A DNA stretch of 32,000 bases from NCBI GenBank assembly GCA_024403355.1, contig JAKSRW010000014.1:1-32000 (forward strand). The letters run 5' to 3'. Below the pieces are notes generated by a model that did no database searches, was not told the origin of the DNA, and saw only the letters and a list, made by a program, of their open reading frames with translations. A program made the position numbers and the translations under genes. The stretch is from Lachnospiraceae bacterium (GTDB lineage: Bacteria; Bacillota; Clostridia; Lachnospirales; Lachnospiraceae). Shown here one piece after another: positions 10,403 to 30,910 of this stretch (its first letter is position 1; every line of letters starts with the position of its first letter).

Positions 10403-10428
10403 GTATAGTAGCGTGAAGCTTGAAAATA

Positions 10429-11596: not shown

Positions 11597-11983
11597 ATGG
11601 TTATTATGAAATTAGTTAAGAAATTTTCAGTTTTATTGGTTCTTTTGATGGTTATGACAATTGGTTTTACATTTACCGCAAAGGCTGTTGCGGCAGATGA
11701 GGATGCGGTAGTTACCGCAGAGGCTGCAGAGGCAGCGGAGGCTGAGGCAGAGGATGGTTCAAAGGGCAGCAAGGCTATTGCGGCAGCTATCGTAGTAGGT
11801 CTTGCGGCAGCAGCCGGTGCACTCGGTATGGGTATTGCGGTAGGAAAAAGTACAGAGAGCATGTCGCGTCAGCCCGAGGCAGCCGGAAAGATTAATTCCT
11901 CGATGATGCTCGGCCTGGTATTTATCGAGACAGCTATTATTTATGCACTTATCATTGCGATTCTGATTATTTTCGTATTGTAA
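11597..11983 (+). CDS. atpE: F-type ATP synthase subunit c with an N-terminal signal-peptide-like extension and acidic tail
   Basis: The C-terminal 75 aa form a classic c hairpin (GALGMGIAVGK...SRQPE...LGLVFIETAIIYALI). The N-terminal 50 aa read KLVKKFSVLLVLLMVMTIGFTFTAKA, then VAADEDAVVTAEAAEAAEAEAED. The start could be 11597 or 11606. Confidence 0.8.
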   Translation: MVIMKLVKKFSVLLVLLMVMTIGFTFTAKAVAADEDAVVTAEAAEAAEAEAEDGSKGSKAIAAAIVVGLAAAAGALGMGIAVGKSTESMSRQPEAAGKINSSMMLGLVFIETAIIYALIIAILIIFVL

Positions 11984-12041
11984 TGTAAACAGCTTATTTA
12001 GCAGATTGTTCTGACTATTTACATCAGAAAAGAGGGAAAAT

Positions 12042-12539
12042 ATGCCGTTAAATATTGATCTTGTGCAGATTTTACTGCACATGCTGAATTTTGTAATACT
12101 TGCCGGCGGACTCACGCTTATCCTTTTTAAGCCTGTGAGTAAGTTTCTGGCAGAGCGCAGGGAGTATTTTGAGAAGCTCGAGAAGGAACATGCCGAAATG
12201 TCTGAGGAAAACGCGAAGATGAAGGCTGAATATGAGCAGAAGATGGAGGAGACAAAGGCAGAGATTAGCGAGCTTCGCAAGCAGTCCGAAAAGGAGGCTG
12301 CGGACGCGGCAAAGGCCTATATTGATGCGGCTAAGGAGCAGGCTGCCAATATTATTAAGACTGCCGAAAAGGACGCCGAGGACAGAAGAAGCCATATTCT
12401 GGATTCTGCCCAGACCGAAATCAGCGAGCTGGTAATCGAGGCAACCCAGAAGCTTCTCAGCGAGACCGCTTCTGCGGAGCGCAGCCGTGCACTTTATGAC
12501 GAATTCATTGTAAATGCTGAAAAGGATACGAAGAAATAA
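12042..12539 (+). CDS. atpF: F-type ATP synthase subunit b
   Basis: RBS agaggga. One N-terminal TM helix followed by a long charged coiled-coil rich in E, K and A. Its position lies between c and alpha. Confidence 0.8.
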   Translation: MPLNIDLVQILLHMLNFVILAGGLTLILFKPVSKFLAERREYFEKLEKEHAEMSEENAKMKAEYEQKMEETKAEISELRKQSEKEAADAAKAYIDAAKEQAANIIKTAEKDAEDRRSHILDSAQTEISELVIEATQKLLSETASAERSRALYDEFIVNAEKDTKK

Positions 12540-12571
12540 GCATTTTACCGAGAAAGATGTGGTTATAAATC

Positions 12572-14362: not shown

Positions 14363-14410
14363 GACCACCCCTGACCCCCATCGCCCCACCACAAAATCAA
14401 AGGAGGAACT

Positions 14411-16748
<2,338 letters not shown>

Positions 16749-17749: not shown

Positions 17750-19819
17750 ATGAACAAGAAACCTTATTACATGACTACTGCGATTGCCTATGCATCAGGC
17801 AAGCCGCACATCGGCAATACCTACGAGATTATCCTCGCAGACAGTATTGCACGTTTCAAGAAGCTTCAGGGCTTCGATGTACGTTTTCAGACAGGTACCG
17901 ACGAGCACGGTATCAAGGTTGAGGAGAAGGCAGCAATCGCAGGCCAGACACCCAAGCAGTTTGTAGACGAGGTAGCAGGCGAAATCAAAAGAGTTTTTGA
18001 CTTAGTAGGTGCAAAGTATGACCGCTTCATCCGTACAACAGATGAGGATCATGAGAAGCAGACACAGAAGATTTTCAGAAAGCTCTATGAAAAGGGCGAT
18101 ATTTACAAGAATGAGTACGAGGGAATGTACTGTAAGCCCTGTGAGTCATTCTTCACGGCCAGCCAGCTTGTGGACGGCAAGTGCCCCGACTGCGGACGTC
18201 CCTGTACACCCGCAAAGGAGGAGGCATACTTCTTCAAAATGAGCAAATATGCCGACAGACTTATCGAGCATATCAATACACACCCCGAGTTCATTCAGCC
18301 CGAATCACGTAAAAACGAGATGCTGAAGAACTTCCTCCTTCCCGGTCTTAAGGACCTTTGCGTATCACGTACGACCGTTAAGTGGGGTGTGCCCGTAGAT
18401 TTCGATCCCAAGCACACAATCTATGTATGGATTGATGCTCTCAGCAACTACATCACCGGTCTTGGCTATGATGTAGACGGCAATAATGATGAATTATTCA
18501 ATAAATACTGGCCCTGTGACCTTCACCTTATCGGTAAGGACATCTTAAGATTCCACACTATTTACTGGCCTATCCTTCTTATGGCACTTGATGTTCCGCT
18601 TCCTAAGCAGGTATTCGGACATCCCTGGCTGCTGCGCGGCGGTGACAAGATGAGTAAGTCAAAGGGTAACGTAATCTATGCGGATGATGTTGCGGGACTT
18701 TTCGGTGTCGATGCGGTTCGTTACTTCGTACTTCATGAGATGCCCTTCGAAAATGACGGCGTAATCACCTGGGAGCTTCTTGTTGAGCGTCTTAATTCAG
18801 ACCTCGCAAATGTTCTCGGAAACCTTGTAAACCGTACGGTTTCAATGAGCAACAAGTATTTCGGCGGCGTTGTAAACAATGCGGGTGCAGCTGAGCCTGT
18901 TGACGAGGAGCTTATCGCACTTGCAAAGGCCACCCGTGCAATCGTTGTGGCAAAGATGGACGAGCTTCGTGTAGCGGACGCACTTACCGAGATTTTCAAT
19001 CTTTTCAAGCGCTGCAACAAGTATATCGATGAGACAGCACCCTGGGCTCTTGCAAAGGATGAGGCAAAGAAGGAGCGTCTTGAGACAGTTCTTTACAACC
19101 TTATCGAGAGCATTACAATCGGCGCAAGCCTTTTAGCCCCCTTCCTTCCCGAGACCGCAGAGAAGATTTTTGCACAGCTTAATACTTCTGCACGCGAGCT
19201 TGAGGAGCTTGGTGATTTCGGAAAATATCCTTCAGGCAATAAGGTAACGGAGAAGCCTGAAATCCTTTTCGCAAGACTTGACCTCAAGGAGGTTATGGAA
19301 AAGGTAGACGTTATCGCTCAGAAGCAGATTGAGGAATTTAAGGCTGAGCAGGCAAAGATTGATGCCTACAATAAGGCACACGGCATTTTAACAGGTGAGG
19401 AAAAGAAGGAGGAGGCAAAGGCTGAGGCTGAAAAGGCTGCGGACGGCTATGTTGCCGGCGACGGCTTCCCTGAGCTTCATGTTCCCACAAAGGCTGAGAT
19501 TACATATGATGATTTTGCAAAGCTTGAGTTCAGAGTCGGTGAAATCATTAAGTGTGAGGAGGTTAAGAAGTCAAAGAAGCTTCTCTGCTCACAGGTTAAG
19601 ATAGGTGCCGATGTTAAGCAGATTGTGTCAGGTATCAAGGCACATTACACACCTGAGCAGATGGTCGGCAAGAAGGTAATGGTAGTGGTAAACCTTAAGC
19701 CCGCCACACTTGCGGGACTTAGTTCAGAGGGTATGATTCTCTGTGCCGAGGATGAAAACGGCGAGCTCGCACTTATGGTTCCCGAGAAGCCCTTTAGTGC
19801 AGGAAGCGAAATCTGCTGA
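17750..19819 (+). CDS. metG: Methionine--tRNA ligase with a C-terminal tRNA-binding (Trbp111/EMAP-like) domain
   Basis: HIGN and KMSKS motifs and a CPDCG zinc knuckle. The start at ATG 17750 (MNKKPYY) follows gaaagga. The upstream part of the ORF-track frame overlaps the T-box leader and is not coding. Confidence 0.95.
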   Translation: MNKKPYYMTTAIAYASGKPHIGNTYEIILADSIARFKKLQGFDVRFQTGTDEHGIKVEEKAAIAGQTPKQFVDEVAGEIKRVFDLVGAKYDRFIRTTDEDHEKQTQKIFRKLYEKGDIYKNEYEGMYCKPCESFFTASQLVDGKCPDCGRPCTPAKEEAYFFKMSKYADRLIEHINTHPEFIQPESRKNEMLKNFLLPGLKDLCVSRTTVKWGVPVDFDPKHTIYVWIDALSNYITGLGYDVDGNNDELFNKYWPCDLHLIGKDILRFHTIYWPILLMALDVPLPKQVFGHPWLLRGGDKMSKSKGNVIYADDVAGLFGVDAVRYFVLHEMPFENDGVITWELLVERLNSDLANVLGNLVNRTVSMSNKYFGGVVNNAGAAEPVDEELIALAKATRAIVVAKMDELRVADALTEIFNLFKRCNKYIDETAPWALAKDEAKKERLETVLYNLIESITIGASLLAPFLPETAEKIFAQLNTSARELEELGDFGKYPSGNKVTEKPEILFARLDLKEVMEKVDVIAQKQIEEFKAEQAKIDAYNKAHGILTGEEKKEEAKAEAEKAADGYVAGDGFPELHVPTKAEITYDDFAKLEFRVGEIIKCEEVKKSKKLLCSQVKIGADVKQIVSGIKAHYTPEQMVGKKVMVVVNLKPATLAGLSSEGMILCAEDENGELALMVPEKPFSAGSEIC

Positions 19820-19912
19820 TGCATATAAGAATTTATACGTGTAAGCATTGACATAAGCGGGCAAAAGAGGCCGAATCCGGCTGAAATCTGCCCCACTGTA
19901 TTAAAATATTTA

Positions 19913-19941
19913 TTGATAATATACAGAAAGTATGATAAACT
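19913..19941 (+). promoter_or_regulatory. Sigma-70-like promoter with extended -10
   Basis: TTGATA, 17-nt spacer, TAAACT with TG at -15/-14. Confidence 0.55.
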
Positions 19942-20044
19942 ATCTTCGATACTGTACGGCTTGTGGGGGGAAACGTCATTTCTGTACAGATTCGTAAACT
20001 AACTGCCAGTATTTGGCAGGCTTAAAGAAAGGCATGGTTATATT

Positions 20045-20812
20045 ATGAACAGAATTAAGAAAGCAGCCAGCATGGTTCTGGCTATGATCGGTGTTCTTGC
20101 TCTTGCATTTGCTTTCTCACCTGCAAAGCAGACAAGTGCGATGACTACCACAGAAATGAATGCAGCATACAAGCTTGGCAATATCGGCAGCGATAAGAAG
20201 GGCGAGACACTTGGTGCAGCAAACTTAAACGAAGTTAAGTCAACCTACTACAAGTTCACTATTGACAGAGAGCTTGAGGTAACCTTCAAGGTTACATTCC
20301 CCGGCGATTTCTCAAAGAAGATTTATGTATGTCTCTGGAACGGTGATAACACACGTCTCAGAGGTAACGTAACTTCAGAGGCTAACTTCAAGTATGACGG
20401 TGACAAGAACATCTCATATGACAAGTGGACATCAACTCTTAGTGCAGGAACATACTTCATTCAGGTTGAAGAGCATTATACAAACCCCGGAACAAAGTTC
20501 GAGGTTACAACATCAGCTAAGATTGACCAGAAGATGTCTCTTACAGCTGCTAAGCTTACAAAGAACAAGACAGTTAAGCTTACATGGACAGAGTGCTCAG
20601 GCGTAGACGGTTACACAATCTACAGAGCAGATGAGAAGAATGGTAAGTACACAGTAGTTGGCCGTGTAACAGATCCCGATGATACATCTTTCGAGGATAC
20701 AAAGGTTAGAACAGGCAGAAAGTACTACTACAAGGTTCGTGCATACGATAAGACAAACAATGGTACACAGTACACACCTTACACAAAGATTAAGAAGGTT
20801 ACAGTAAAGTAA
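20045..20812 (+). CDS. Small secreted protein: signal peptide, PPC-like beta-sandwich domain, FN3-like domain
   Basis: Signal peptide MVLAMIGVLALAFAFSPAKQTSA. YYKFTI...LSAGTYFIQV resembles pre-peptidase C-terminal domains. FN3-like block: KLTWTECSGVDGYTIYRAD...GRKYYYKVRAY. Confidence 0.7.
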   Translation: MNRIKKAASMVLAMIGVLALAFAFSPAKQTSAMTTTEMNAAYKLGNIGSDKKGETLGAANLNEVKSTYYKFTIDRELEVTFKVTFPGDFSKKIYVCLWNGDNTRLRGNVTSEANFKYDGDKNISYDKWTSTLSAGTYFIQVEEHYTNPGTKFEVTTSAKIDQKMSLTAAKLTKNKTVKLTWTECSGVDGYTIYRADEKNGKYTVVGRVTDPDDTSFEDTKVRTGRKYYYKVRAYDKTNNGTQYTPYTKIKKVTVK

Positions 20813-20862
20813 TTTGTTTGACGGATGCGAACTGATTCGCAGTTAAGAAGAAATATAATAAT

Positions 20863-20896
20863 CGGGGCTGTCGTTTAGGCGACCGCCCCGTTTGTC
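20863..20896 (+). terminator. Intrinsic terminator
   Basis: cggggctgtcg-tttagg-cgaccgccccg followed by tttgtc. Confidence 0.7.
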
Positions 20897-20992
20897 AGTT
20901 AAAGGTCTTGTGCCCGGATATTGGCGGCAGAGAGTATAGACAGAAAGGCATGGCTTTGATTGCAGTGCAGGCGGAAAGGCATGGTAATCGGT

Positions 20993-22060
20993 ATGGAAAC
21001 AATTGTCAAAAAAATAAACGCGGATGCAATGGAGAGTGAGGATTTTTTTGAAGCGGTGAAGATTCTTCGCAGCGGCGGACTTGTTGCATTTCCTACAGAG
21101 ACCGTATACGGACTTGGCGGGGATGCCTTTGACCCTACTGCGGCCAAAAGAATTTATGCGGCGAAGGGAAGACCCTCGGATAATCCTCTTATAGTTCATA
21201 TTGCGGATATCGGTGAGCTGGAGGGGCTCTGCGAGAATATTCCCGCAACTGCCTACAGTCTGGCGGACGCCTTCTGGCCCGGTCCTCTGACCATGATTTT
21301 GCAGAAAAAGGCATGTATTCCGACAGAGACCACGGGCGGACTTGACACGGTAGCCATCAGAATGCCTTCAAATCCCATTGCCCGCAGGCTGATAAGGGAA
21401 GCTGGACTTCCTGTTGCGGCACCTTCGGCCAATGCTTCCGGAAGACCGTCAACCACAAAGGCAGAGCATGTAATAGAGGATTTAGACGGAAAAATCGAGA
21501 TGATTATCGATGGCGGTGCATCTGCCATCGGACTTGAATCGACTATTGTGGACCTTACCTCCAATCCGGTATTGATTCTTCGTCCCGGATATATTACAAT
21601 CGAGATGCTGAGGAAAATAATTCCCGATGTTGAATATGACAAGGCTGTTCTTAAGCGCGAGAGAAATGATAACATTGTGGCTAAGGCACCGGGCATGAAG
21701 TACCGTCATTACGCACCAAAAGGCGATTTAACGATATTTGACGGTAAGGATGAGAATGTGTGCGCCGCGATTGAAAAGGCCGTAAATGAGGCTTTTGAGA
21801 GCGGACAGACGGCAGGTGTGCTCTGCAGTGCGGAGCTTGCGGACAGACTCAGTATTGACAGGGAACGCGTCCGGCTGTGTGTGCCGGGTTCAAAGACTGA
21901 TGAGGCTGCCATTGCGGCTGAGCTTTTTGATTCACTCCGTTCCTTTGATGATGCGGGAACGGGACTTATATTTGCGGAAAGCTTCAGCACGGACGACCTC
22001 GGACAGGCCATTATGAACAGACTTATTAAAGCAGCCGGCTATCATATTGTAGAGGTATAG
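20993..22060 (+). CDS. tsaC: L-threonylcarbamoyladenylate synthase, long Sua5/YwlC type
   Basis: GGLVAFPTETVYGLGGDAF and AAKGRPSDNPLIVHI motifs plus a C-terminal Sua5 domain. The start is uncertain (20960, 20981 or 20993). Confidence 0.9.
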   Translation: METIVKKINADAMESEDFFEAVKILRSGGLVAFPTETVYGLGGDAFDPTAAKRIYAAKGRPSDNPLIVHIADIGELEGLCENIPATAYSLADAFWPGPLTMILQKKACIPTETTGGLDTVAIRMPSNPIARRLIREAGLPVAAPSANASGRPSTTKAEHVIEDLDGKIEMIIDGGASAIGLESTIVDLTSNPVLILRPGYITIEMLRKIIPDVEYDKAVLKRERNDNIVAKAPGMKYRHYAPKGDLTIFDGKDENVCAAIEKAVNEAFESGQTAGVLCSAELADRLSIDRERVRLCVPGSKTDEAAIAAELFDSLRSFDDAGTGLIFAESFSTDDLGQAIMNRLIKAAGYHIVEV

Positions 22061-22102
22061 GAGCCGGAAATAATTAAATTTTATAATAAAGGAGAACAGA
22101 TT

Positions 22103-22528
22103 ATGTTAGCAATTGGCAGTGATCACGCAGGCTATGCATTAAAGCAGGCAGTTATGAAGCATTTAGAGGAAAGAGGCGTAGAGTACAAGGATTACGGAAC
22201 CTACAGTGAGGCTTCATGTGATTATCCTGATTTTGCTGAGGCAGTAAGCCAGGCAATCATCAGCGGTGAGGCAGAGAACGGAATTCTCATCTGCGGTACA
22301 GGTATCGGTATCTCAATCGCAGCAAACAGACACAAGGAGATTCGTGCCGCACTGTGCGGAGACTGCTTCAGTGCAGAGGCTACACGTCAGCACAACGATG
22401 CAAATATCCTTGCCATGGGTGCGAGAGTAGTAGGTGAAGGTCTTGCGGTAAAGATTGTTGATACCTTCCTTGATACACCCTTCTCAAACGGTGCAAACCA
22501 CGTAAGAAGAATTTCAAAGATGAGCTAA
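22103..22528 (+). CDS. rpiB: Ribose-5-phosphate isomerase B
   Basis: RBS aaaggag. IGSDHAGYALK and ILICGTGIGISIAANR motifs. Confidence 0.9.
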   Translation: MLAIGSDHAGYALKQAVMKHLEERGVEYKDYGTYSEASCDYPDFAEAVSQAIISGEAENGILICGTGIGISIAANRHKEIRAALCGDCFSAEATRQHNDANILAMGARVVGEGLAVKIVDTFLDTPFSNGANHVRRISKMS

Positions 22529-22654
22529 GTAATTTTCATTAATTTAGTACTCGGAAGCCGTATAAGCCGGCAAAGCCTGCGCTCGCAGACTTATTCGGGT
22601 GAAGTTAATAAATGTGGAAACTTGGTTCTAAGAGTTGTATTTTTGGAGAAATCT

Positions 22655-25135
22655 ATGGAGCAGGAAATTGTAAAATATGATGCTTTCATCAGCTACAGAC
22701 ATTCGGAGCTCGACAGATATGTGGCAATGACCATACAAAAGAGGCTTGAGGGCTTCAGGCTTCCAAAGAACTTTTCAAAGAAACGGGAGGGTGGCAGAAA
22801 TGTCATCTCCCGTATTTTTCGTGACCAGGATGAGCTGTCGCTGGCGGATAATCTGGCTGAGCCTCTTGCTCTGGCGCTTGAAAATTCCGATTTCCTGATT
22901 GTAATAAGCACACCGAGATATCCGCAGTCAGACTGGTGTCTGCAGGAGATTGAGAATTTCCTGAAAAATCACGACATGGACCATGTTCTTGTGGTACTGG
23001 CTGAGGGTGAGCCTGATGAGTCCTTCCCTGAAATTCTGACCTATCGTGACGTCGAAATAACCGATGATAACGGAAATGTCAGAATCGAGCGTAAAAGCAT
23101 GGAGCCGCTTGCGGCAGATGTGAGGGGCGCGGACAAACGTGAGATTAATAAAAAGATGGACGATGCCGTTTTGAGAATTGCGGCGGCCATGTTCGGTGTT
23201 TCCTTTGACAGTCTCAAGCAGCGCCACCGTGAGCAGCGAATGAGGCGAATGATTGCCTTTTTTGGCAGTGTGGCGGCGGTATTACTCATTTTTTCAATCG
23301 TCTGTTTTGCCCTTCTTACAAAAATCAATGACCAGAAAAGCATTATTTCCGAGCAGTATCGTGACATTCAGCTGAGATATGCCAATTCGATGGTAAATGC
23401 CTCGCAGCAGCTTATGTCAGCGGGGCGAAGGAAGGATGCGGTATATCTGGTAAATAAGGTCCTGCCGGAGAATCCCGTGGATGAGACCATTCCCTACAGT
23501 GCTGAGGCAGAGCGTGCTCTGGCGTCGGCTCTGGAGCTTTATGATCGCAGGAACGGTTTTTCGGTAAAGGGAAGCGTAGATGCCGAATCAGGTGTATCTG
23601 AGCTGACAGCTTCGGCTTCCGGCCGATATTTAGCATTTGCTTCGCAGGACGGAAATATTGTCATTTACGATATGATAGCGGAAAAAGAGGTCGGCAGAAC
23701 CGGGCTTTCCGGCAGCTATACCCAGCTGATTTATCTGAGCTTCATGGGGGAAGACAAGCTGTTTTTCTTTGAAAACGGCGAGGTTCACCGCTATGATATT
23801 TTAAGCGGCAGGGACGAACTGCTCTATCGTGGGGAGAACTGCTCTGTATATCTGTCAGAGGAGGGTAAGGTCTTTGCTGTATGGGAAGATAATATTTTAC
23901 GTATCTTTGATCTAAATAATAAAGAAATCTTCTCAGGGGATTTTATGGAGCAGCTGGCCGAATATGCGGGCAGGGAGCTTGAAATTGCGGCTGCATCCTG
24001 CTCACATTCCGGAAAGACGCTTACTCTTGCACTTTCACCCTACGGCGGCGGGGCAAGCGTGCTGATTTCTGTGGATTTAATAAATTCCGAAGAAGTATTT
24101 TTTGACATATACACGATAAATGCAAATGTCTGTATCGCCAATAGCGATGATATGATATACTTTGTCGTTTACAACGGATATACGCCGGACACCATGTTTG
24201 CAAATGTATACGGTATCAGCTTTGCAACAGGCCAGCCCCTTTGGGCATCATCCGTTTACAATGATGTATTCACAAGGATTGACTACATTGAGGATGCCGG
24301 CAGGGAATACGTGGTCACGGCCGGTGACAAGCGTGTGTCCCTGTATACTGCCGACGACGGCCAGCGACTGTGCGATGAACTGACTTCAGAGCTGATTATC
24401 TCAATGAACAGAACGCAGGCAGGTGACGCTGTTATGTTTTCGTTAAAGAACGGCGGTGTTTTAAAGCTTGACGCGAGTGCAGTGATTGTTGATTATTCGC
24501 TGAATTACTTTAATTACTCTATGTCGAATGTGCTGGACTATTGCAGGGTTTATGACAATTGCGTTGTGGCGCATATTCTCTATTCGGATTATGTCTACTA
24601 TATGACCCGCTATGATACGCCCGGCTATAAGCTTCTTCCGGATATGTCGGACAACAGCCACAGTTATCCTTACAGGGACAATTCAGAACTGATTAAGGAG
24701 CTTGGAATAGACGGTTCAAATATCAGCGCTTCCCTGGAATCCGAGGACGGAAAGCTTTTTATAACAGAGCTTTCAAACGGAGAATTATCCGTATACTCAA
24801 TCGAAGGTAAAAGGCTTCTGAACACGATTTACGGAAGCTATTCGCTTATGAGAAGGCTGATTTACTGCAGTGAAATCGACAAATATTTATTGATTAAGTC
24901 AAAAAGCAGCCTGCTTTTGAATTCCGACGGTGAAGTAGTTGCTGAGCTGCAGGATGTATATGATTACTGCGTGAACGGCGTACCCGGCTTTGTAATGAAG
25001 GAGGCTCAGACCGGCGAGGAGAGCAGCTTCTACTTTGCACCCTATGTGACCTACGAGCAGCTGATAGCCACTGCAAAAAGCTATCTGGGCGACTACGAGC
25101 CCTCACAGAAGATTAGAAAACGCTACGGAATATAA
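22655..25135 (+). CDS. TIR domain protein with a single TM helix and a large C-terminal WD40-like beta-propeller region
   Basis: Start ATG 22655 lies after GGAGA. TIR box 1 is KYDAFISY. The SDWCLQEIENF helix carries the conserved Glu (codon 22946-22948). A KQRHREQRMRR stretch precedes the TM helix MIAFFGSVAAVLLIFSIVCFALL (about 23249-23320). Repeated SxDGxxLAxxxxDGxIxIYD-type blades follow. Confidence 0.8.
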   Translation: MEQEIVKYDAFISYRHSELDRYVAMTIQKRLEGFRLPKNFSKKREGGRNVISRIFRDQDELSLADNLAEPLALALENSDFLIVISTPRYPQSDWCLQEIENFLKNHDMDHVLVVLAEGEPDESFPEILTYRDVEITDDNGNVRIERKSMEPLAADVRGADKREINKKMDDAVLRIAAAMFGVSFDSLKQRHREQRMRRMIAFFGSVAAVLLIFSIVCFALLTKINDQKSIISEQYRDIQLRYANSMVNASQQLMSAGRRKDAVYLVNKVLPENPVDETIPYSAEAERALASALELYDRRNGFSVKGSVDAESGVSELTASASGRYLAFASQDGNIVIYDMIAEKEVGRTGLSGSYTQLIYLSFMGEDKLFFFENGEVHRYDILSGRDELLYRGENCSVYLSEEGKVFAVWEDNILRIFDLNNKEIFSGDFMEQLAEYAGRELEIAAASCSHSGKTLTLALSPYGGGASVLISVDLINSEEVFFDIYTINANVCIANSDDMIYFVVYNGYTPDTMFANVYGISFATGQPLWASSVYNDVFTRIDYIEDAGREYVVTAGDKRVSLYTADDGQRLCDELTSELIISMNRTQAGDAVMFSLKNGGVLKLDASAVIVDYSLNYFNYSMSNVLDYCRVYDNCVVAHILYSDYVYYMTRYDTPGYKLLPDMSDNSHSYPYRDNSELIKELGIDGSNISASLESEDGKLFITELSNGELSVYSIEGKRLLNTIYGSYSLMRRLIYCSEIDKYLLIKSKSSLLLNSDGEVVAELQDVYDYCVNGVPGFVMKEAQTGEESSFYFAPYVTYEQLIATAKSYLGDYEPSQKIRKRYGI

Positions 25136-25146
25136 AAGGAAAAAAT

Positions 25147-25617
25147 ATGATAAGGTCTACATTGTGTTATCTGGAAAAGGACGGCTGTTATCTGATGCTG
25201 CTCCGTAATAAAAAGAAGCAGGATTGCAATAAAGGAAAATGGATAGGTGTCGGCGGAAAATTCGAAGAAGGAGAGACTGCAGAAGAGTGCATAGCCCGTG
25301 AAGTATTTGAGGAGACCGGTATAAGGCTGATTTCGGCTCATTTTTACGGGGTAGTGGAATTCCGTTCCGATACAGATGAGGATGAGGACATGTACCTTTT
25401 TTCCTCAAAGGACTTCGAGGGCGAAACTGATACCGATAAAATAGACTGCAATGAAGGCAGTCTGAAGTGGATAGCCAAAGAAGAAATAATGGACCTTCAT
25501 CTCTGGGAAGGAGACCGGGTTTTCCTTCAGAAAATGCTGCAAGGTGAAGATGCAATAAATCTGCGCCTGGAGTACACTGGTGGAAATCTGACGGGAGCGT
25601 ATAAAATAAAAAGATAA
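25147..25617 (+). CDS. Nudix hydrolase (MutT/8-oxo-dGTPase-like)
   Basis: Perfect Nudix box GKFEEGETAEECIAREVFEETGI. The start is 11 nt after the TIR stop, and its RBS aaagga abuts and partly overlaps that stop. Confidence 0.85.
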   Translation: MIRSTLCYLEKDGCYLMLLRNKKKQDCNKGKWIGVGGKFEEGETAEECIAREVFEETGIRLISAHFYGVVEFRSDTDEDEDMYLFSSKDFEGETDTDKIDCNEGSLKWIAKEEIMDLHLWEGDRVFLQKMLQGEDAINLRLEYTGGNLTGAYKIKR

Positions 25618-25658
25618 CCCACTGCCTTTAGGCGGTGGGTGAAGCGGTCACGAGTTTG
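25600..25658 (+). repeat. Dispersed repeat, module A copy 2 joined directly to module C
   Basis: tataaaataaaaagataacccactgcctttaggcggtgggtgaagc + ggtcacgagtttg. It overlaps the last 6 codons (including the stop) of the Nudix gene. On the minus strand the hairpin is followed by ttatcttttt, so it may also terminate the DUF402 gene. Confidence 0.85.
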
Positions 25659-25699
25659 GTTAATTGTATTATCTGACAAAGTCTGCCGGGGATGGCTTA

Positions 25700-26185
25700 T
25701 CAGGCCTCTGCATTGTCAATGACAGCCTGAAGTCTGTCGAATCTGCCGCGGTAGATGCAGGTCAGAAGCTCATTCATGGCACGAAGGCCGTATAAAAGCT
25801 GCTCCTTTGTAATAAGGCCCTTCTCATAGGCCTCTGCGGCCTCGTCACTGTCCAGCACCTTAATTGCACCGTTAGGATATACCACGACATCAAAAAGCAG
25901 ATCCTCGTAGGTCATGGAATTCTCGGCCTCGTTCTTAACCACATCTATAATGTCACAGTACCAGTATTTTACTTTATTCTCACAGTCAAGAATCTTTGAA
26001 ACCTTCCAGCCCTTATCAAAGAAAAATGCAGAGATACCGCCGACAAAATCCTGACGCGGTTTGAGTGTCTTCCATTTTGTAATGAGCAGATCATCCTCAA
26101 ATTTTAATATTGTATCATTTATCAGGGGAGTAAACTCCTCGGGAATATAACGTCGTCTGTAGAGCTTTAAATCTTCTATTTTCAT
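25700..26185 (-). CDS. DUF402 family protein (Ntdp/FomD-like nucleoside di/triphosphatase fold)
   Basis: Pattern YRRRYIPEE...KWYCDIIDV...DLLFDVVVYPNG, typical of DUF402. Confidence 0.65.
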   Translation of the reverse strand: MKIEDLKLYRRRYIPEEFTPLINDTILKFEDDLLITKWKTLKPRQDFVGGISAFFFDKGWKVSKILDCENKVKYWYCDIIDVVKNEAENSMTYEDLLFDVVVYPNGAIKVLDSDEAAEAYEKGLITKEQLLYGLRAMNELLTCIYRGRFDRLQAVIDNAEA

Positions 26186-26256
26186 ACTGCCATGCCCGCC
26201 CGCATTCGGAATGCGTCCTTTCCGATATACCTATATCTCATAAAAATATTACAACC

Positions 26257-26285
26257 ATTATACGACAGCGAAACCTCACTTTCAA
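26257..26285 (-). promoter_or_regulatory. Consensus-like sigma-70 promoter for the DUF402 gene
   Basis: On the minus strand: TTGAAA, 17-nt spacer, TATAAT. Confidence 0.65.
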
Positions 26286-26299
26286 CCCCCAAAACACTT

Positions 26300-26816
26300 C
26301 CCGGCCAAAATCTGTTACAGTGGGCGTCGCCGGGATGTGTTTTTACTTTTTATTTCCGGCTGCCCGCTGCAGTGTTCAATTTCCGACTGTAATGATATTT
26401 CCTTCGAGAACCGGTCTCGCCTTTTCATTTTCTAACTGCCGCAGCCTCGCGTATCTATGCTCTACGCCGCCAGTCGGACATCCCTGTCCTCCCGTGCGGC
26501 GCGCCGTCCGTCCATGGACGGCGTGACGAGCATAGGTCTTTATTGCAAGACTGCGGCAGCAAGAAAATGTAGCAAGGCTCGAAGGCTCTCGAAGAAAACA
26601 CACATTACAGTCCGGAAAGGAACGCAGCCGGGCGTAAGTAAATAAGCAGAAGCTCACATCCCGGTTTTGTCGATGAGAACAGATTTTGGCTCCTAGCCAC
26701 ACCCAAACCGTGTTAGCTATTTGGGGGATTTACTTGAAGCGTGTGATATGTGGCTGTTAGTAAACCGCAGGTCGAAAAGAAATCTGACGGGAACATTGCA
26801 GCGGGCAGCCGGAAAC
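26300..26816. ncRNA. Candidate large structured non-coding element (unclassified; the alternative is a MITE-like element)
   Basis: There is no protein-like ORF and the core is GC-rich. Nested long-range helices include a 25-bp closing helix (26353-26377/26791-26815), and crossing 13-bp and 10-bp pairings are also present. See the findings for all coordinates. The strand is unresolved. Confidence 0.45.
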
Positions 26817-26858
26817 TAAAAAAGTCGCATCATGGTGAAGCACGATGCGACTGATTTT
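26817..26858. terminator. Bidirectional intrinsic terminator (ends the minus-strand LRR gene; would also end a plus-strand RNA)
   Basis: Stem agtcgcatc/gatgcgact (26823-26831/26844-26852) flanked by an A6 tract on the left and TGATTTT on the right. Confidence 0.75.
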
Positions 26859-26875
26859 GGACTGGGGTGTCCTAA

Positions 26876-28897
26876 TTATTTAACTTTTACAGCTATCTTG
26901 AAGGTCTTTGTAGTCTTCTTCTTGCCGTTGGTGATAGTAGCCTTAACATTTACTGTACAGGTGCCCTTCTTTACACCGGTAATCTTGCCGGTAGTAGAGC
27001 TAACCTTTGCTATTTCCTTGTTGGAAGAGCTGTACTTGAGCACAACCTCAGTATTACTGTTTCCGAGCTTCTTAACAGATGTAAGACCGAAAGGAAGAAT
27101 AATATTGGGCTGAGCCTTCTTCTTAGCAGAAACGGTAACTACATCCTGAACATAAATCTGATTAAGGATTTCATCGTTTGAATCGATTAACTCATAATTC
27201 TGACGGTAGTATGCGTAATCAGGATCGAATTCGGGATCAAACCACTGGGGTAATGTGACATTATTGTAGATGTCAATAATCTCTGCCATGGGTGAATCAG
27301 CATATACACGCATGATATCGATGTTATAGTAGCCAAGTGTTACGAAGTTCTTGGGGAATGTAACTGTAAGTAACATCTCCTTTTCTTCTCCGTCGTAATA
27401 GTTGTTTGCAAGTGCGTAATCAGCTGCTGAAAGGCAATCCTTGTGAATCTTTACATTGCTCAGCTTCTTGGGAGCTACATAAAGATATGAATAATCCTTT
27501 GTATATAAGCAGTTGTTATAAGAAGCGAAGAAGCTGTTATCAGGTGATACTACGATTTTCTCAAGATTATCAGAAGTACGTAAATAGATGTTATCTGTAT
27601 AGGTTAATGATGCGGGTAAGGTAATCTTCTTTGCCGCACTACCGGATAAGTAGCTGCACATATATGTTACGCCCTCGGGAACGTTGATTTCCTTAAGCTT
27701 TGTATCTGTGAAAGCAAATGATTCAATGCCTACAATATTGGGATCAAACTTGATAGATGTCTTGTTCTTGGGAACATAGTAGAGGATTGACTTGTACATA
27801 GGGCTGTTGTTGTCGTAAGAGTAGTCTAAATATGTACCGTAAAGACAATCATCGTAGATACTGAAGGTGGGGTTCTTGTCGCTTACCTTAACAGAACCTG
27901 TATAGCCACAGAAAGCCTCAGGACTGATGAATGCTACATTCTCAGGGATTGTGATGCTCTTAATGGAAGACTCGTCAAATGCATATGCACTGATGGTAAC
28001 GAGGTTCTTGGGAAGGTTTACGTTCTTAAGTGAATACATACCTGCGAAGCTGGCTTCGCCAATCTTCTCAACGCTGTCGGGAAGGTTGATTGTTGTAACA
28101 TAGCAGCTGCCTGAAATACCAAGGTAGCTTGTCTCTATAGTACCGGGTCTTACATTGATAACCTTCTTGCTGGGATCAAGAGAGAAGAGGATATCTCCGT
28201 CGTAGATACAGTCATTTTCGATATCGAAACGGTCTGAATCATCAGTAAGTGCTGAATAAGCTACATCTCTGATTGAGAAGTATGCAAGATTCTTGGGAAG
28301 ATTGATTTTCTTTGCAGCGGGAAGGTCGTAGAGATAAAGATACTCTGTTTTTGCACCTACGTTTACTGTTTCAATCTTATCGCAGTAAGAAATCTCTACT
28401 GTTTCGCCTCTGTTGGGAAGGTCGACTGACTTAATCTGAGGACATGAACTAACCGTAATATTTGAGCATTCGGTTACTCCGTTCTTCTCAAAGGTTACGT
28501 TCTTGAGTGATGACAGTGCATAAAGAGAAACTGACTGTGCATTCTTGGGAATTGTTAAGCTTTCGATTCCTTCATCATAGTTCATATAAATGTAGTCTGC
28601 AGATGCAGGAATCTTAACGCTCTTAAGGCTGGGGCAGTTGTAAATGTAGACACTGTTGTAGCCTTCTGCGATTGAAAGCTCTTCGATGGTTGAGTTCTCT
28701 GAGATATAGAGAGAAGCAGCATCGGTCATGGCAGGAATATTAACCTTTTTGTCTGAACCGACATAGTACACGGTACCCCATGAAACTTCAAAATCACTTG
28801 CTGCTGCATTAGCCTCTACACCGGGCATTGCAAACATCTGGATTGCAATGGCAAGGAAAGCAATGAAGGCAACAAATTTCTTCATAGATCTTTTCAT
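26876..28897 (-). CDS. BspA-type leucine-rich-repeat surface protein with a C-terminal Big_2-like domain
   Basis: RBS aaaggagaaa. Signal peptide MKKFVAFIAFLAIAIQMFAMPGVEANA. Many LRR units of about 22 aa (IPxxVxxIxxxAFxxCxxLxxV). The C-terminus SSSNKEIAKVSSTTGKITGVKKGTCTVNVKA is Big_2-like. Confidence 0.8.
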   Translation of the reverse strand: MKRSMKKFVAFIAFLAIAIQMFAMPGVEANAAASDFEVSWGTVYYVGSDKKVNIPAMTDAASLYISENSTIEELSIAEGYNSVYIYNCPSLKSVKIPASADYIYMNYDEGIESLTIPKNAQSVSLYALSSLKNVTFEKNGVTECSNITVSSCPQIKSVDLPNRGETVEISYCDKIETVNVGAKTEYLYLYDLPAAKKINLPKNLAYFSIRDVAYSALTDDSDRFDIENDCIYDGDILFSLDPSKKVINVRPGTIETSYLGISGSCYVTTINLPDSVEKIGEASFAGMYSLKNVNLPKNLVTISAYAFDESSIKSITIPENVAFISPEAFCGYTGSVKVSDKNPTFSIYDDCLYGTYLDYSYDNNSPMYKSILYYVPKNKTSIKFDPNIVGIESFAFTDTKLKEINVPEGVTYMCSYLSGSAAKKITLPASLTYTDNIYLRTSDNLEKIVVSPDNSFFASYNNCLYTKDYSYLYVAPKKLSNVKIHKDCLSAADYALANNYYDGEEKEMLLTVTFPKNFVTLGYYNIDIMRVYADSPMAEIIDIYNNVTLPQWFDPEFDPDYAYYRQNYELIDSNDEILNQIYVQDVVTVSAKKKAQPNIILPFGLTSVKKLGNSNTEVVLKYSSSNKEIAKVSSTTGKITGVKKGTCTVNVKATITNGKKKTTKTFKIAVKVK

Positions 28898-29020
28898 TTT
28901 TTTCTCCTTTCAAGAAATGAAAAATAATATACAAAAAAAAGTATAGCAGATACTGCAAAATAATAAATACCTAAAAGTATTAAATAAATATAGTTTTTGG
29001 CAGATATTAATTAAATCAGA

Positions 29021-29062
29021 TAAAAACAGCGTGTGAAAAATGATTTCTCAGTCTTCACACGC
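29021..29062 (-). terminator. Intrinsic terminator after atp operon 2
   Basis: On the minus strand: gcgtgtgaa...ttcacacgc followed by tgttttta. Confidence 0.7.
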
Positions 29063-29075
29063 CAAATCATTGTTA

Positions 29076-29477
29076 TCAGTCTTTTACACTCAGACGAACA
29101 AGGGCACGGTTAAGCTTTGCAGTTGCAATACGGAATTCTTTTTCATCAATATTGGCCTGTGCAAGACGTGCTTCTGCTCTTTCTTTTGCGGAAAGTGCAC
29201 GCTCCTTGTCAATGTCTTCCTTCCACTCCCATGTAGTAGCAAGAAGATGGCAGGTACCATCCATAACGCTCAGCATACCGCCGATGCAGGCTGCTGTACG
29301 TCTGGTTCCGTCCTCCAGCTGAATATATGCCTCGCCCATACCGAGAGCGGTGCAATAATTACAATGACCTGCAAGAATTGCGAGGTCGCCGGTGACGGTC
29401 CTGCATTTGATTCTCTCTACATTACCTGAGAAGAGCAGACCATCCGGTGTTGCTATTTGTAACGGAAAAACGTTCAT
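29076..29477 (-). CDS. atpC: F-type ATP synthase epsilon subunit (operon 2)
   Basis: RBS aaaggag. The PLQIATPDGLLFSG...GDLAILAGH pattern is canonical. Confidence 0.9.
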   Translation of the reverse strand: MNVFPLQIATPDGLLFSGNVERIKCRTVTGDLAILAGHCNYCTALGMGEAYIQLEDGTRRTAACIGGMLSVMDGTCHLLATTWEWKEDIDKERALSAKERAEARLAQANIDEKEFRIATAKLNRALVRLSVKD

Positions 29478-29497
29478 GGATTTCTCCTTTATAATAA

Positions 29498-30910
<1,413 letters not shown>

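What the first reader, a model, noticed from the sequence alone, without database searches (positions are those of the whole stretch)
22655..25617. Receptor-like TIR protein (cytoplasmic TIR, one TM helix, roughly 600-aa WD40-like ectodomain) translationally coupled to a Nudix hydrolase
**TIR domain.** The N-terminal 140 aa are a TIR domain, with box 1 YDAFISY. The SxWCLxE(I/L) helix has its Glu at codon 22946-22948. In TIR NADases and in plant TIRs this Glu is the catalytic residue.

**Topology.** A strongly basic stretch (KQRHREQRMRR) precedes one TM helix. By the positive-inside rule the TIR domain is therefore cytoplasmic, and the repetitive beta-propeller-like region (blades of the SxDGxxLAFASQDGNIVIYD type) is extracytoplasmic. 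This is a Toll-like-receptor logic: an outside sensor and an inside TIR. It differs from the soluble Thoeris ThsB or STAND-type TIR proteins.

**Nudix partner.** The next gene starts 11 nt downstream, and its RBS abuts and partly overlaps the TIR stop. It encodes a Nudix hydrolase with a perfect Nudix box. Nudix enzymes hydrolyse ADP-ribose-type nucleotides, which are the products of TIR NADases. The pair could therefore form a signal-generator plus signal-degrader (or self-protection) module. No ThsA-like or other known effector lies nearby, so this would not be a classical Thoeris system.

**Caveat.** The Nudix protein also resembles housekeeping MutT/MTH1-type enzymes, and the linkage may be fortuitous.
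Basis: partly seen in the sequence, partly recalled or inferred. Interest (0 to 1): 0.72.

Follow-up and report, generated by a model that had tools for sequence, protein, structure and literature searches.

The report
Membrane TIR receptor beside unrelated Nudix
The gene encodes a real, receptor-shaped bacterial protein: an NAD-cleaving-type TIR domain inside the cell, one membrane helix, and a fast-evolving beta-propeller outside. It belongs to a very large, unstudied family of gut and rumen Clostridia, and the Nudix gene next to it is a housekeeping neighbour, not a partner.

Summary

**The TIR protein (window 22655-25135, 826 aa)**
- It has an N-terminal TIR domain with an invariant W94xxxE98 motif.
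- It has a single strong TM helix (aa 199-222) with more basic residues on the N-terminal side.
- It has a helical stalk, a beta-propeller region of about 11 blades, and a conserved C-terminal tail.
- The AlphaFold2 model has a mean pLDDT of 89.
- The family is very large: 2,034 clusters at 50% identity match at E<=1e-30. Members come mostly from rumen and gut Lachnospiraceae, often with several paralogues per genome.
- Mean pairwise identity is 67% in the TIR domain and 23% in the propeller.

**The proposed TIR-Nudix module is not supported**
- A relative with about 80% nucleotide identity is collinear with the window (Sua5-RpiB-Nudix-DUF402) but lacks the TIR gene. The TIR gene is a 2.6-kb indel at that site.
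- Among 147 immediate neighbours of 80 family loci, only 2 are Nudix proteins. Both belong to other subfamilies and lie upstream of the TIR gene.
- The window Nudix is MTH1/MutT-like, and some of its homologues are fused to an MGMT domain.

**Most likely function (inferred):** an outside-in receptor whose clustering activates TIR NAD+ cleavage. The ligand and the biological role are unknown.

I found no description of this architecture in the searchable literature. I rate it a new variant of a known kind, of moderate interest.

The parts
22529..25143 (+). 2.6-kb segment (TIR gene plus its 126-nt leader and the spacer) that is present here and in L001 but absent from the collinear relatives L085 and L086
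   Evidence: The blastn collinearity between window and L085 breaks exactly at 22528 and resumes at 25144. L085 has 164 bp in place of this segment. No flanking direct or inverted repeats were found.
22655..25135 (+). Gene for the 826-aa TIR-TM-beta-propeller protein (type II orientation: N-terminus in, C-terminus out)
   Evidence: Compared with L001, pN/pS is 0.12, which indicates purifying selection.
22670..23203 (+). Cytoplasmic TIR domain (aa 6-183), including an extra beta-hairpin at aa 130-148 and the invariant EPLAADxRG motif (aa 150-158)
   Evidence: Pfam TIR_2 and TIR score above their cutoffs. The AF2 TIR-only model has pLDDT 85. Foldseek top hits are RUN1, RPV1, RPP1 and AbTir. Mean pairwise identity in the family is 0.67.
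22934..22948 (+). W94-C-L-Q-E98 (WxxxE) motif; the Glu98 codon is 22946-22948
   Evidence: W94, C95 and E98 are invariant in 82 sequences. E98 aligns with the Glu of WCLEEL in Roq1 and of WCLMEL in L6.
23249..23320 (+). Single transmembrane helix (aa 199-222), preceded by KQRHREQRMRR
   Evidence: Kyte-Doolittle maximum 2.69, and it is the only segment above 1.6. K+R counts are 6 on the N side and 3 on the C side. It forms part of one continuous helix, aa 184-255, in the AF2 model.
23321..23554 (+). Extracytoplasmic helical stalk (aa 223-300) with the conserved G257-R-R-K-D-A-V-Y motif
   Evidence: Mean pairwise identity 0.45.
23555..25042 (+). Hypervariable beta-propeller ectodomain (aa 301-796; 44 strands, about 11 blades)
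   Evidence: AF2 DSSP assignment. Foldseek matches tandem WD40 propellers at about E 1e-16. Mean pairwise identity is 0.23, and 0.16 to the window protein.
25043..25132 (+). Conserved C-terminal helical tail (aa 797-826; family consensus ADEYLGDYxPSxxIKxKYGI)
   Evidence: Mean pairwise identity 0.40.
25136..25146 (+). 11-nt spacer AAGGAAAAAAT carrying the Nudix ribosome-binding site
25147..25617 (+). MTH1/MutT-like Nudix hydrolase gene (156 aa; Nudix box at 25255-25323). It is an older resident of the rpiB locus and not a dedicated TIR partner.
   Evidence: A recombination patch at 25263-25404 distinguishes it from L001.
25618..25639 (.). Hairpin CCCACTGCC-TTTA-GGCGGTGGG directly after the Nudix stop. 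It lies between the convergent Nudix and DUF402 genes and is part of a repeat also found at 10428-10482.

Best explanation
Window 22655-25135 encodes a single-pass membrane protein of a very large, uncharacterised family from Lachnospiraceae and other Clostridia.

**Architecture (shown here)**
- The N-terminal 190 aa or so form a cytoplasmic TIR domain of the enzymatic type, resembling plant NLR TIRs and AbTir, with an invariant WxxxE motif.
- One continuous helix crosses the membrane and extends into a conserved extracellular stalk.
- The stalk carries a fast-diverging beta-propeller of about 11 blades, followed by a conserved C-terminal tail.

**Mechanism (inferred)**
- The variable propeller binds an extracellular ligand.
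- Ligand-driven clustering or a stalk/TM rearrangement brings the cytoplasmic TIR domains together.
- As in other TIR NADases, this assembles the active site and triggers NAD+ cleavage, giving either NAD+ depletion or an ADPR-derived signal.
- The biological role is unknown. Possibilities include surveillance of phage or envelope attack, or sensing of another external cue.

**The Nudix gene**
- The downstream Nudix gene is an MTH1/MutT-like housekeeping gene that sits next to rpiB in relatives lacking the TIR gene.
- The TIR gene lies on a 2.6-kb indel between rpiB and the Nudix gene.
- The two genes are probably co-transcribed here, but they do not form an evolved module.
For: **TIR domain**
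- Pfam TIR_2 and TIR score above their cutoffs.
- W94, C95 and E98 are invariant in 82 homologues.
- E98 aligns with the Glu of the WCL(E/M)EL stretch in Roq1 and L6.
- The TIR-only model best matches NADase TIRs: RUN1, RPV1, RPP1, RPS4 and AbTir.

**Topology**
- There is one TM segment (KD 2.69) with an N-side basic bias, conserved across the family at 5.0 versus 2.0 K+R.
- The N-terminus (MEQEIVKYDAF) has no hydrophobic signal-peptide-like stretch.

**Structure**
- The full-length AF2 model has pLDDT 89.2 and pTM 0.72. It shows the TIR domain, a helix at aa 184-255, a stalk, 44 beta-strands and C-terminal helices.
- Foldseek matches tandem WD40 propellers at about 1e-16.

**Family**
- 839 hits were scored; only the best 120 are listed, and these have E<=2e-94.
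- 2,034 clusters at 50% identity match aa 1-300 at E<=1e-30.
- At least 529 loci were found in species-representative genomes, nearly all rumen or gut Lachnospiraceae and other Clostridia, with 2-3 copies in several genomes. L074 carries three tandem copies.
- Region identities are TIR 0.67, stalk 0.45, propeller 0.23 and tail 0.40.
- The gene is under purifying selection, pN/pS 0.12.

**Independence of the Nudix gene**
-.

**Weak contextual hint of an NAD+/ADPR link in the family**
- The only two Nudix neighbours found are an NrtR-like ADPR-responsive repressor (L017) and a NudC-like NAD+ diphosphatase (L040).
Against: - No enzymatic or topology experiment exists. NADase activity, the ligand and the activation mechanism are all inferred.
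- No dedicated topology predictor was available, so the orientation rests on hydropathy, charge bias and the absence of a signal peptide.
- Neighbours of family members are overwhelmingly housekeeping genes: 130 Pfam families among 147 neighbours, with almost no PADLOC hits. This gives no defence-island support for an immune role.
- No effector or signal receiver was identified.
- Blade number and ring arrangement were read from DSSP only, without coordinates.
- The TIR gene and the Nudix gene are only 11 nt apart and are probably co-transcribed in this strain, so a local, recently acquired functional interplay cannot be excluded.
Confidence: 0.6

Rival explanations
1. First reader's model. 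The TIR protein and the Nudix hydrolase form a two-gene module. The TIR domain makes an ADPR-type signal or consumes NAD+, and the Nudix degrades the product, either to terminate the signal or to protect the cell.
For: - The genes are 11 nt apart on the same strand with no terminator between them.
- The same arrangement is found in L001.
- Nudix enzymes as a class can hydrolyse ADPR and NAD+ derivatives (PMC9503650).
- Two other family loci have NAD/ADPR-type Nudix genes directly upstream of the TIR gene.
Against: - L085, L086 and L087 carry the orthologous Nudix (70-77% identity) next to rpiB with no TIR gene.
- Other orthologues are never next to a TIR gene.
- A phmmer search of the window Nudix against all ORFs of 84 family loci hits only L001.
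- NUDIX accounts for 2 of 147 neighbours. My own estimate is that about 0.6 would be expected if roughly 0.4% of genes are Nudix, a background figure from general knowledge that was not measured here; on that assumption a Poisson calculation of mine gives P about 0.12.
- The window Nudix is MTH1/MutT-like, and its homologues are fused to an MGMT domain.
- It lacks the proline 15-16 residues after the Nudix box that, from my recollection of the literature, marks ADPR pyrophosphatases. This can be seen directly in the sequence.
- Between the window and L001 the Nudix carries a recombination patch that the TIR gene does not share.
Confidence: 0.07
2. The TIR domain is a non-catalytic scaffold, as in animal TLR/IL-1R signalling. 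On activation it recruits an unidentified cytoplasmic partner instead of cleaving NAD+.
For: - No effector or NAD-related partner is encoded nearby.
- The very high conservation of the whole cytoplasmic face, including the family-specific EPLAADxRG motif and a beta-hairpin, could reflect a protein-protein interface.
- MyD88 and TLR TIR domains also appear among the structural matches.
Against: - The WxxxE motif with Glu98 is invariant across 82 divergent sequences.
- The best sequence and structure matches are catalytic TIR domains.
- From general knowledge of the field, bacterial TIR domains studied so far that have this Glu are NADases.
Confidence: 0.13
3. The protein is not a signalling receptor. 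It is a surface protein, for example for adhesion to plant fibre or to other cells, or for binding glycans or the cell wall, and the N-terminal TIR domain has a secondary or regulatory role.
For: - The organism and its relatives are rumen and gut fibre-associated Lachnospiraceae.
- The window also encodes other surface proteins: fn3, BspA-type LRR and Big_2.
- The propeller is highly variable and present in multiple copies.
Against: - A conserved stalk, TM helix and tail, together with a 67%-identical cytoplasmic enzyme-type domain, are hard to explain for a pure adhesin.
- No cell-wall anchoring or known binding motifs were found.
Confidence: 0.1

Closest known systems
Plant TIR-NLR TIR domains (RUN1, RPV1, RPP1, Roq1, L6) and the bacterial NADase AbTir
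   Same: They give the best sequence matches (about 1e-3) and the best structural matches (about 1e-5, roughly 120 aligned residues). They share the flavodoxin-like TIR fold. The Trp and Glu of the S-x-W-C-L-x-E-[IL] stretch align in Roq1 and L6.
   Different: Those proteins are soluble and are activated by intracellular NB-LRR or coiled-coil-driven oligomerisation. This protein is membrane-anchored with an extracellular sensor. Its TIR domain also carries a family-specific beta-hairpin (aa 130-148) and an EPLAADxRG motif.
Animal Toll-like receptors and IL-1 receptors
   Same: [quoted passage not shown]
   Different: - The orientation is opposite. TLRs are type I with a C-terminal TIR; this protein has an N-terminal TIR and its C-terminus outside.
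- The ectodomain is a beta-propeller, not LRR or Ig.
- From general knowledge, TLR TIR domains act as scaffolds. Their structural matches here are weaker than those of the plant TIRs.
- There is no evidence of common descent of the whole architecture.
Thoeris ThsB and other defence TIR proteins (TIR-STING, SpbK, TIR-SAVED)
   Same: They are bacterial TIR proteins in which a sensor part controls TIR NAD+ cleavage.
   Different: - NCBIfam Thoeris ThcB4 scores 24 bits against a cutoff of 220.
- PADLOC gives only weak hits.
- No ThsA-like or other effector is present, there is no defence-island context, and the protein is membrane-anchored.
- A 2025 survey of TIR signalling systems does not use the words Nudix, WD40 or propeller, and its mentions of transmembrane helices concern effectors (10.64898/2025.12.03.692087).
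Eukaryotic tandem WD40 propellers (Utp21, EML-type proteins, Apaf-1 WD40 region); BamB/PQQ-like propellers
   Same: Fold-level similarity of the ectodomain: Foldseek about E 1e-16, plus sub-threshold Pfam hits to WD40 and PQQ_2.
   Different: Sequence identity is only 10-12%, the TM-scores of the listed matches are mostly about 0.13-0.25 (two ODA16 chains reach 0.24-0.33 normalised to the query and 0.43-0.61 to the target), no Pfam model reaches its cutoff, and the location is extracellular.
MTH1/NUDT1 and MutT 8-oxo-dGTP diphosphatases (for the Nudix gene)
   Same: They are the best PDB matches over nearly the full length (1e-12), including the GKW-G-GGK stretch and the Nudix box. Sources name the homologues 8-oxo-dGTP diphosphatase, and some are fused to an MGMT domain.
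   Different: All NCBIfam equivalog models score below their cutoffs. In the alignment to zebrafish MTH1, the Asn of the GKWNGFGGK stretch is Ile33 here, so substrate specificity is open.

Membership tests
TIR domain superfamily (Pfam PF13676 TIR_2 / PF01582 TIR) | Profile match above the curated cutoff | tested here: met
   TIR_2 scores 35.7 bits (cutoff 28) and TIR scores 26.8 bits (cutoff 21.3).
Catalytic (NADase-type) TIR domains | Conserved catalytic Glu in the alpha-C helix (WxxxE) | tested here: met
   W94 and E98 are invariant in 82 homologues. E98 aligns with the Glu of WCLEEL in Roq1 and of WCLMEL in L6. The closest folds are RUN1, RPP1 and AbTir.
Catalytic (NADase-type) TIR domains | Measured NAD+ cleavage or cyclase activity | not testable with these tools
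   This needs an enzyme assay of aa 1-198 with and without the E98A mutation.
Thoeris (ThsB plus a ThsA-type effector) | TIR gene in an operon with a signal-activated effector, and a match to ThsB models | tested here: not met
   ThcB4 scores 24 bits against a cutoff of 220. PADLOC hits have E>=4e-4. The window neighbours are RpiB, Nudix and DUF402. No recurrent effector appears among the 147 neighbours.
Toll-like receptor architecture | N-terminal LRR ectodomain, type I TM helix, C-terminal TIR domain | tested here: not met
   The TIR domain is N-terminal and the ectodomain is a C-terminal beta-propeller. Only the outside-sensor/inside-TIR logic is shared.
Single-pass N-in/C-out membrane protein | One TM helix, positive-inside bias on the N side, no signal peptide | tested here: met
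   The Kyte-Doolittle maximum is 2.69 at aa 199-222 and this is the only such segment. K+R counts are 6 versus 3, with family means of 5.0 versus 2.0. No dedicated predictor or experiment was available.
WD40/PQQ beta-propeller | Sequence profile above cutoff | tested here: not met
   All propeller models score below their gathering cutoffs; for example PQQ_2 scores 22.3 against 27.6.
WD40/PQQ beta-propeller | Propeller fold of four-stranded blades | tested here: met
   The AF2 model (pLDDT about 90) has 44 strands. Foldseek matches tandem propellers at about 1e-16. Ring number and closure were not determined.
Nudix hydrolase superfamily | Nudix box GX5EX7REUXEEXGU and a PF00293 match | tested here: met
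   G37-I59 (GKFEEGETAEECIAREVFEETGI) is a perfect box. PF00293 matches at 7e-17.
MutT/MTH1-type NTP pyrophosphatases | Closest characterised relatives; equivalog model above cutoff | tested here: inconclusive
   The best PDB hits are MTH1 and MutT at 1e-12 to 1e-10, but the NCBIfam MutT and NudG models score below their cutoffs.
ADP-ribose / NAD-type Nudix | Closest relatives are ADPRase, NudC or NrtR; subfamily motifs | tested here: not met
   NAD+ diphosphatase scores 26.6 bits against a cutoff of 158, and YffH/AdpP scores 16 against 79.55. The only PDB ADPRase hit is at 2.5e-4. No Pro lies 15-16 residues after the box, and there is no SQPWPFPxS motif; both can be seen in the sequence, and both rules come from my recollection of the literature.
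Conserved TIR-Nudix gene pair | The adjacency recurs in independent lineages | tested here: not met
   It is seen only in L001 (TIR 99% identical). It is absent from L085, L086 and L087 at the same locus and from 80 other family loci.

The most novel reading that the evidence does not exclude
Thousands of Clostridial proteins may be prokaryotic outside-in TIR receptors. Distant TIR-TM relatives with other ectodomains exist too; the Sinorhizobium example has a C-terminal part that looks alpha-helical and repeat-like by eye. In this reading, a hypervariable extracellular sensor detects phage particles, competitors or other surface cues. It then activates a cytoplasmic NADase-type TIR domain by induced clustering. 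That would be a functional analogue of Toll-like receptors, evolved independently in bacteria, acting without a neighbouring effector gene.
Probability: 0.3. Interest if true: 0.85.

Novelty: new variant of a known kind. Interest (0 to 1): 0.5.

Why it matters
Bacterial TIR proteins characterised so far are, to my knowledge, soluble cytoplasmic sensors or effectors. A very large family (at least 2,000 clusters at 50% identity) places an enzyme-type TIR domain behind a single TM helix and a rapidly diversifying extracellular propeller. That arrangement would mean TIR/NAD+ signalling in bacteria can be driven from outside the cell. This is the logic of animal TLRs, and it would be present in dominant rumen and gut fibre degraders.

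It would open testable questions. What are the ligands: phage, glycans or neighbouring cells? Is the output NAD+ depletion or a nucleotide signal? Why do genomes keep several paralogues?

The negative result matters as well. The attractive TIR-Nudix 'generator plus degrader' pairing is an accident of a 2.6-kb indel next to a housekeeping MutT/MTH1-like gene. It should not be propagated as a new defence system.

Tried and rejected
- **Window Nudix versus family loci.** A phmmer search of the window Nudix against all ORFs of 84 family loci, plus a strict Nudix-box regex, found only L001 and two unrelated upstream Nudix genes.
- **Defence classification.** PADLOC and NCBIfam gave only sub-threshold TIR hits. 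The Nudix hits the candidate model PDC-S07 at 7e-14, which also matched two other family-locus neighbours (most likely the L017 and L040 Nudix genes) at a best E of 3.8e-9, so I treated it as a generic Nudix match.
- **Mobile-element signature of the 2.6-kb indel.** There are no flanking direct or inverted repeats, no tRNA genes and no compositional anomaly.
- **Internal promoter or terminator between TIR and Nudix.** Nothing convincing was found.
- **Phage carriage.** There is no match to aa 1-300 in 50,697 phage records.
- **A DHH/DHHA1 phosphoesterase as the real conserved partner.**
  - It is adjacent to the TIR gene in 12 of 84 loci and in L094-L097 and L100, even where the other flanking genes differ.
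  - I rejected it as an obligatory partner for three reasons. Its orthologues occupy the same conserved purine-gene/GlnS context without a TIR gene (L098, L101). Most family loci lack it. The window has none.
  - The recurrent adjacency remains unexplained.
- **Literature.** Four full-text searches and four papers were checked. None mentions a bacterial TIR-TM-propeller family or a TIR-Nudix system of this type.
- **Discarded computation.** One search was an ungapped comparison spoilt by a 1-nt indel. It was replaced by the gapped comparison.

Full report
**1. Observation**

ORF and TIR domain:
- The ORF at 22655-25135 (+) encodes 826 aa from an ATG preceded by GGAGA.
- Pfam recognises the N-terminus as TIR_2 (35.7 bits, cutoff 28) and TIR (26.8 bits, cutoff 21.3).
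- Codon 22946-22948 is Glu98 within SDWCLQEI.

Membrane segment:
- The only strongly hydrophobic segment is aa 199-222, with a Kyte-Doolittle maximum of 2.69.
- It follows KQRHREQRMRR.
- Six K/R residues lie within the 15 or so residues on its N side, against three on the C side. The family means are 5.0 and 2.0.

Junction with the Nudix gene:
- The TIR stop codon is at 25133-25135.
- The Nudix ATG at 25147 follows an 11-nt spacer, AAGGAAAAAAT.
- The Nudix protein is 156 aa, matches PF00293 at 7e-17 and has a perfect Nudix box at G37-I59.

The spacing fits co-transcription. The genes do not overlap, so strict translational coupling is not shown.

**2. Structure**

Full-length model:
- I ran AlphaFold2 on an 82-sequence family alignment. 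It gave a confident model: mean pLDDT 89.2 and pTM 0.72.
- The model shows a TIR fold at aa 8-180.
- One uninterrupted helix runs from aa 184 to 255 through the membrane segment, followed by a short helical stalk to about aa 292.
- Next come 44 beta-strands (about 11 four-stranded blades) from aa 302 to 796, and two C-terminal helices.
- Foldseek against the PDB returns tandem WD40 propellers (UTP proteins, EML-like proteins, Apaf-1) at about E 1e-16. Sequence identity is only 10-12% and global TM-scores are low.
- At the sequence level, all propeller Pfam models stay below their cutoffs.

TIR-only model:
- A separate model of the TIR domain alone has pLDDT 85.4.
- Its best matches are NADase TIR domains of the plant NLRs RUN1, RPV1, RPP1, RPS4, L6 and Roq1, and bacterial AbTir, at E 1e-5 to 1e-4.
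- A phmmer search against PDB sequences aligns the query's WCLQE stretch with WCLEEL of Roq1 and WCLMEL of L6.

**3. Family**

Size and distribution:
- The protein has one near-identical relative, P0001 at 99% identity. After that come hundreds of homologues at only about 30-33% full-length identity. Their lengths cluster around 800, 1,000 and 580 aa, and they are annotated only as 'TIR domain-containing protein'.
- An exhaustive HMMER scan with aa 1-300 finds 2,034 clusters at 50% identity with E<=1e-30, and 7,079 with E<=1e-10.
- In one-genome-per-species contigs, at least 529 loci encode relatives. Nearly all come from rumen or gut Lachnospiraceae and other Clostridia.
- Several genomes appear two or three times among the best 80 loci. 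L074 carries three tandem copies.

Conservation by region (mean pairwise identity):

| Region | Identity |
|---|---|
| TIR domain | 0.67 |
| TM region | 0.53 |
| Stalk | 0.45 |
| Propeller | 0.23 |
| C-terminal tail | 0.40 |

- Invariant positions include A10-Y14 of YDAFISY, W94, C95, E98 and EPLAADxRG at aa 150-158.
- The gene is under purifying selection relative to L001, with pN/pS 0.12.

Reach beyond Clostridia:
- Distant TIR-TM relatives exist on Sinorhizobium megaplasmids (30% identity over aa 4-272).
- Their C-terminal part looks alpha-helical and repeat-like by eye, and shows no propeller-like repeats.
- The TIR-TM module therefore appears to be combined with different extracytoplasmic domains.

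Mobile elements:
- No phage record carries the family.
- One Butyrivibrio fibrisolvens 243-kb plasmid does.

**4. The Nudix question**

Four independent lines argue against a module.

(a) Synteny.
- L085 is collinear with window 18601-29684 at about 67-94% nucleotide identity. Its gene order is fn3, Sua5, RpiB, Nudix (77% identical), DUF402, BspA-LRR, atpC.
- The alignment breaks at window 22528 and resumes at 25144. The 2,615 bp carrying the TIR gene and its leader are replaced there by 164 bp.
- L086 and L087 (Nudix 70% identical) also have Sua5-RpiB-Nudix, with a 16-nt gap.
- More distant Nudix orthologues (61-67% identity) sit in unrelated contexts, never beside a TIR gene.

(b) Family neighbourhoods.
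- A phmmer search of the window Nudix against every ORF of 84 family loci hits only L001.
- A Pfam scan of the 147 immediate neighbours of 80 loci finds 130 different families. NUDIX occurs twice.

(c) Type of Nudix.
- The best solved relatives are MTH1/NUDT1 and MutT, at 1e-12 to 1e-10 over almost the full length.
- An ADP-ribose pyrophosphatase appears only at 2.5e-4.
- NCBIfam hits are MutT-, NudG- and NudI-like, all below their cutoffs.
- Sources name the homologues 8-oxo-dGTP diphosphatase, and six of them are fused to the MGMT DNA-binding domain PF01035.

(d) History.
- The window and L001 differ at 142 positions over 9.1 kb.
- Forty of these fall inside 25263-25404, the Nudix-box region. 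This is a recombination patch not shared by the TIR gene.

I conclude that the Nudix gene sits beside rpiB in relatives that lack the TIR gene, and that the TIR gene lies on a 2.6-kb indel next to it. Because two increasingly distant relatives lack the segment, insertion in the window lineage is the more parsimonious direction. The indel has no flanking repeats.

**5. Neighbourhood of the family**

- Neighbours are diverse and mostly housekeeping genes. PADLOC finds almost nothing among them. There is therefore no defence-island signal and no recurrent effector.
- The commonest neighbour is a DHH/DHHA1 phosphoesterase of about 500 aa.
  - It lies immediately upstream of the TIR gene in many of the 12 loci that carry it. 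In L057 its stop codon overlaps the TIR start.
  - It is also present in L094-L097 and L100.
  - The DHH gene is itself a well-conserved gene in a purine-biosynthesis/GlnS context that also exists without a TIR gene (L098, L101).
  - This again looks like a TIR presence/absence polymorphism at a housekeeping site, not an obligatory pair.
- Regulators occasionally lie between or beside the two genes: a BlaI/CopY-type repressor in L064 and L028, and a LytTR response regulator plus kinase in L100.
- The only two Nudix neighbours are an NrtR-like Nudix-wHTH protein (NF050029, 1e-41; L017) and a NudC-like NAD+ diphosphatase (NF001299, 1.6e-26; L040). These are single cases. They fit the idea that the family deals with NAD+/ADPR, but they do not rescue the window's pairing.

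**6. Mechanism**

Shown here:
- an enzymatic-type TIR domain on the N-terminal, basic-flanked side of a single TM helix;
- a rigid helix connecting it to a conserved stalk;
- a hypervariable propeller and a conserved tail.

Inferred:
- The propeller is extracellular and binds a variable ligand.
- Ligand-induced clustering or stalk movement juxtaposes TIR domains.
- From established knowledge of SARM1, plant TNL resistosomes and AbTir filaments, such juxtaposition is what assembles TIR NADase active sites.
- The output is NAD+ depletion or a nucleotide signal read by an unlinked receiver.

My confidence by step:

| Step | Confidence |
|---|---|
| Architecture | about 0.9 |
| Independence of the Nudix gene | about 0.85-0.9 |
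| NADase activity | about 0.65 |
| Outside-in activation | about 0.4 |
| Specifically anti-phage or immune role | about 0.3 |

**7. Comparison and novelty**

- The protein works like a TLR in layout, but it is not one. The orientation is opposite, the ectodomain is a propeller, and the TIR domain is of the catalytic type.
- It is not a Thoeris ThsB, because model scores are far below the cutoffs and no effector is present.
- The full-text literature I could search does not describe this architecture.
- Databases already hold the proteins under a generic name.
- I classify it as a new variant of a known kind: bacterial TIR enzymes with a new topology and sensor.
- Interest is moderate (0.5). 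The proposed two-gene system falls, but the receptor-like family is real, very large and uncharacterised.

Noticed in passing
window 10428-10482 (+10550-10570) and 25597-25660; L085 4080-4106: A short repeated element, ATAAAATA(G/A)AAAGATAACCCACTGCCTTTAGGCGGTGGGTGAAGC, includes a 9-bp-stem hairpin. One copy lies after the 875-aa ORF at 7775-10402 and another directly after the Nudix stop. A similar hairpin lies between rpiB and the Nudix gene in L085. It may be a reused terminator or a REP-like element.
   Followed up: partly
window 25263-25404: The window and L001 differ at about 1.5% overall. However, 40 of the 142 differences cluster in this 140-nt stretch of the Nudix gene, which covers the Nudix box. 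This is a localised recombination or gene-conversion patch.
   Followed up: partly
window 10597-16725 (+) and 29076-30889+ (-): The window holds two sets of F-type ATP synthase genes. One includes a 596-aa delta(OSCP)-alpha fusion and a beta-like subunit with an ATP-synt_VA_C domain. L001 is 98% identical from 17317 onward but carries different genes (Peripla_BP-HD, FIST-GGDEF) upstream of metG. That indicates either a rearrangement between close strains or an assembly join.
   Followed up: no
window 1000-5800: A low-GC block (0.31-0.36, against about 0.45 elsewhere) encodes an 821-aa aBig_2 protein, a 751-aa BspA-LRR plus lipase-like protein, and a PDDEXK_2 transposase-like protein. It may be acquired DNA.
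   Followed up: no
L024, L028, L053-L055, L057, L058, L064, L065, L074, L075, L079, L094-L097, L100: A DHH/DHHA1 phosphoesterase gene of about 500 aa recurs next to TIR-family genes, although the other flanking genes differ. In L057 its stop overlaps the TIR start. Orthologous DHH genes without a TIR gene exist at the same site (L098, L101). Whether this reflects an insertion hot spot, an ancestral location or a functional link is unresolved.
   Followed up: partly
L017 5042-5920; L040 5478-5975: The only two Nudix genes adjacent to family members are an NrtR-like ADPR-responsive Nudix-wHTH repressor, whose stop overlaps the TIR start, and a NudC-like NAD+ diphosphatase. Both are NAD/ADPR-related subfamilies, unlike the window's MTH1-like Nudix.
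   Followed up: partly
L064 2020-2427; L028; L100 6527-8027: In some loci, regulator genes lie between the DHH gene and the TIR gene. L064 and L028 have a BlaI/CopY-type 'penicillinase repressor', and in L064 its stop overlaps the TIR start. L100 has a LytTR response regulator plus an HATPase_c_5 kinase.
   Followed up: no
L102 4557-7313 (Sinorhizobium sp. K101 plasmid pK101b): This is a distant homologue of the TIR-TM module: 30% identity over aa 4-272, including an EPLAAD motif. Its long C-terminal region looks alpha-helical and repeat-like by eye, instead of a propeller. An autotransporter gene lies next to it.
   Followed up: partly
L074 3394-5919 and flanks: Three TIR-TM-propeller paralogues (826, 842 and 841 aa) lie in tandem, preceded by a DHH gene.
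   Followed up: no
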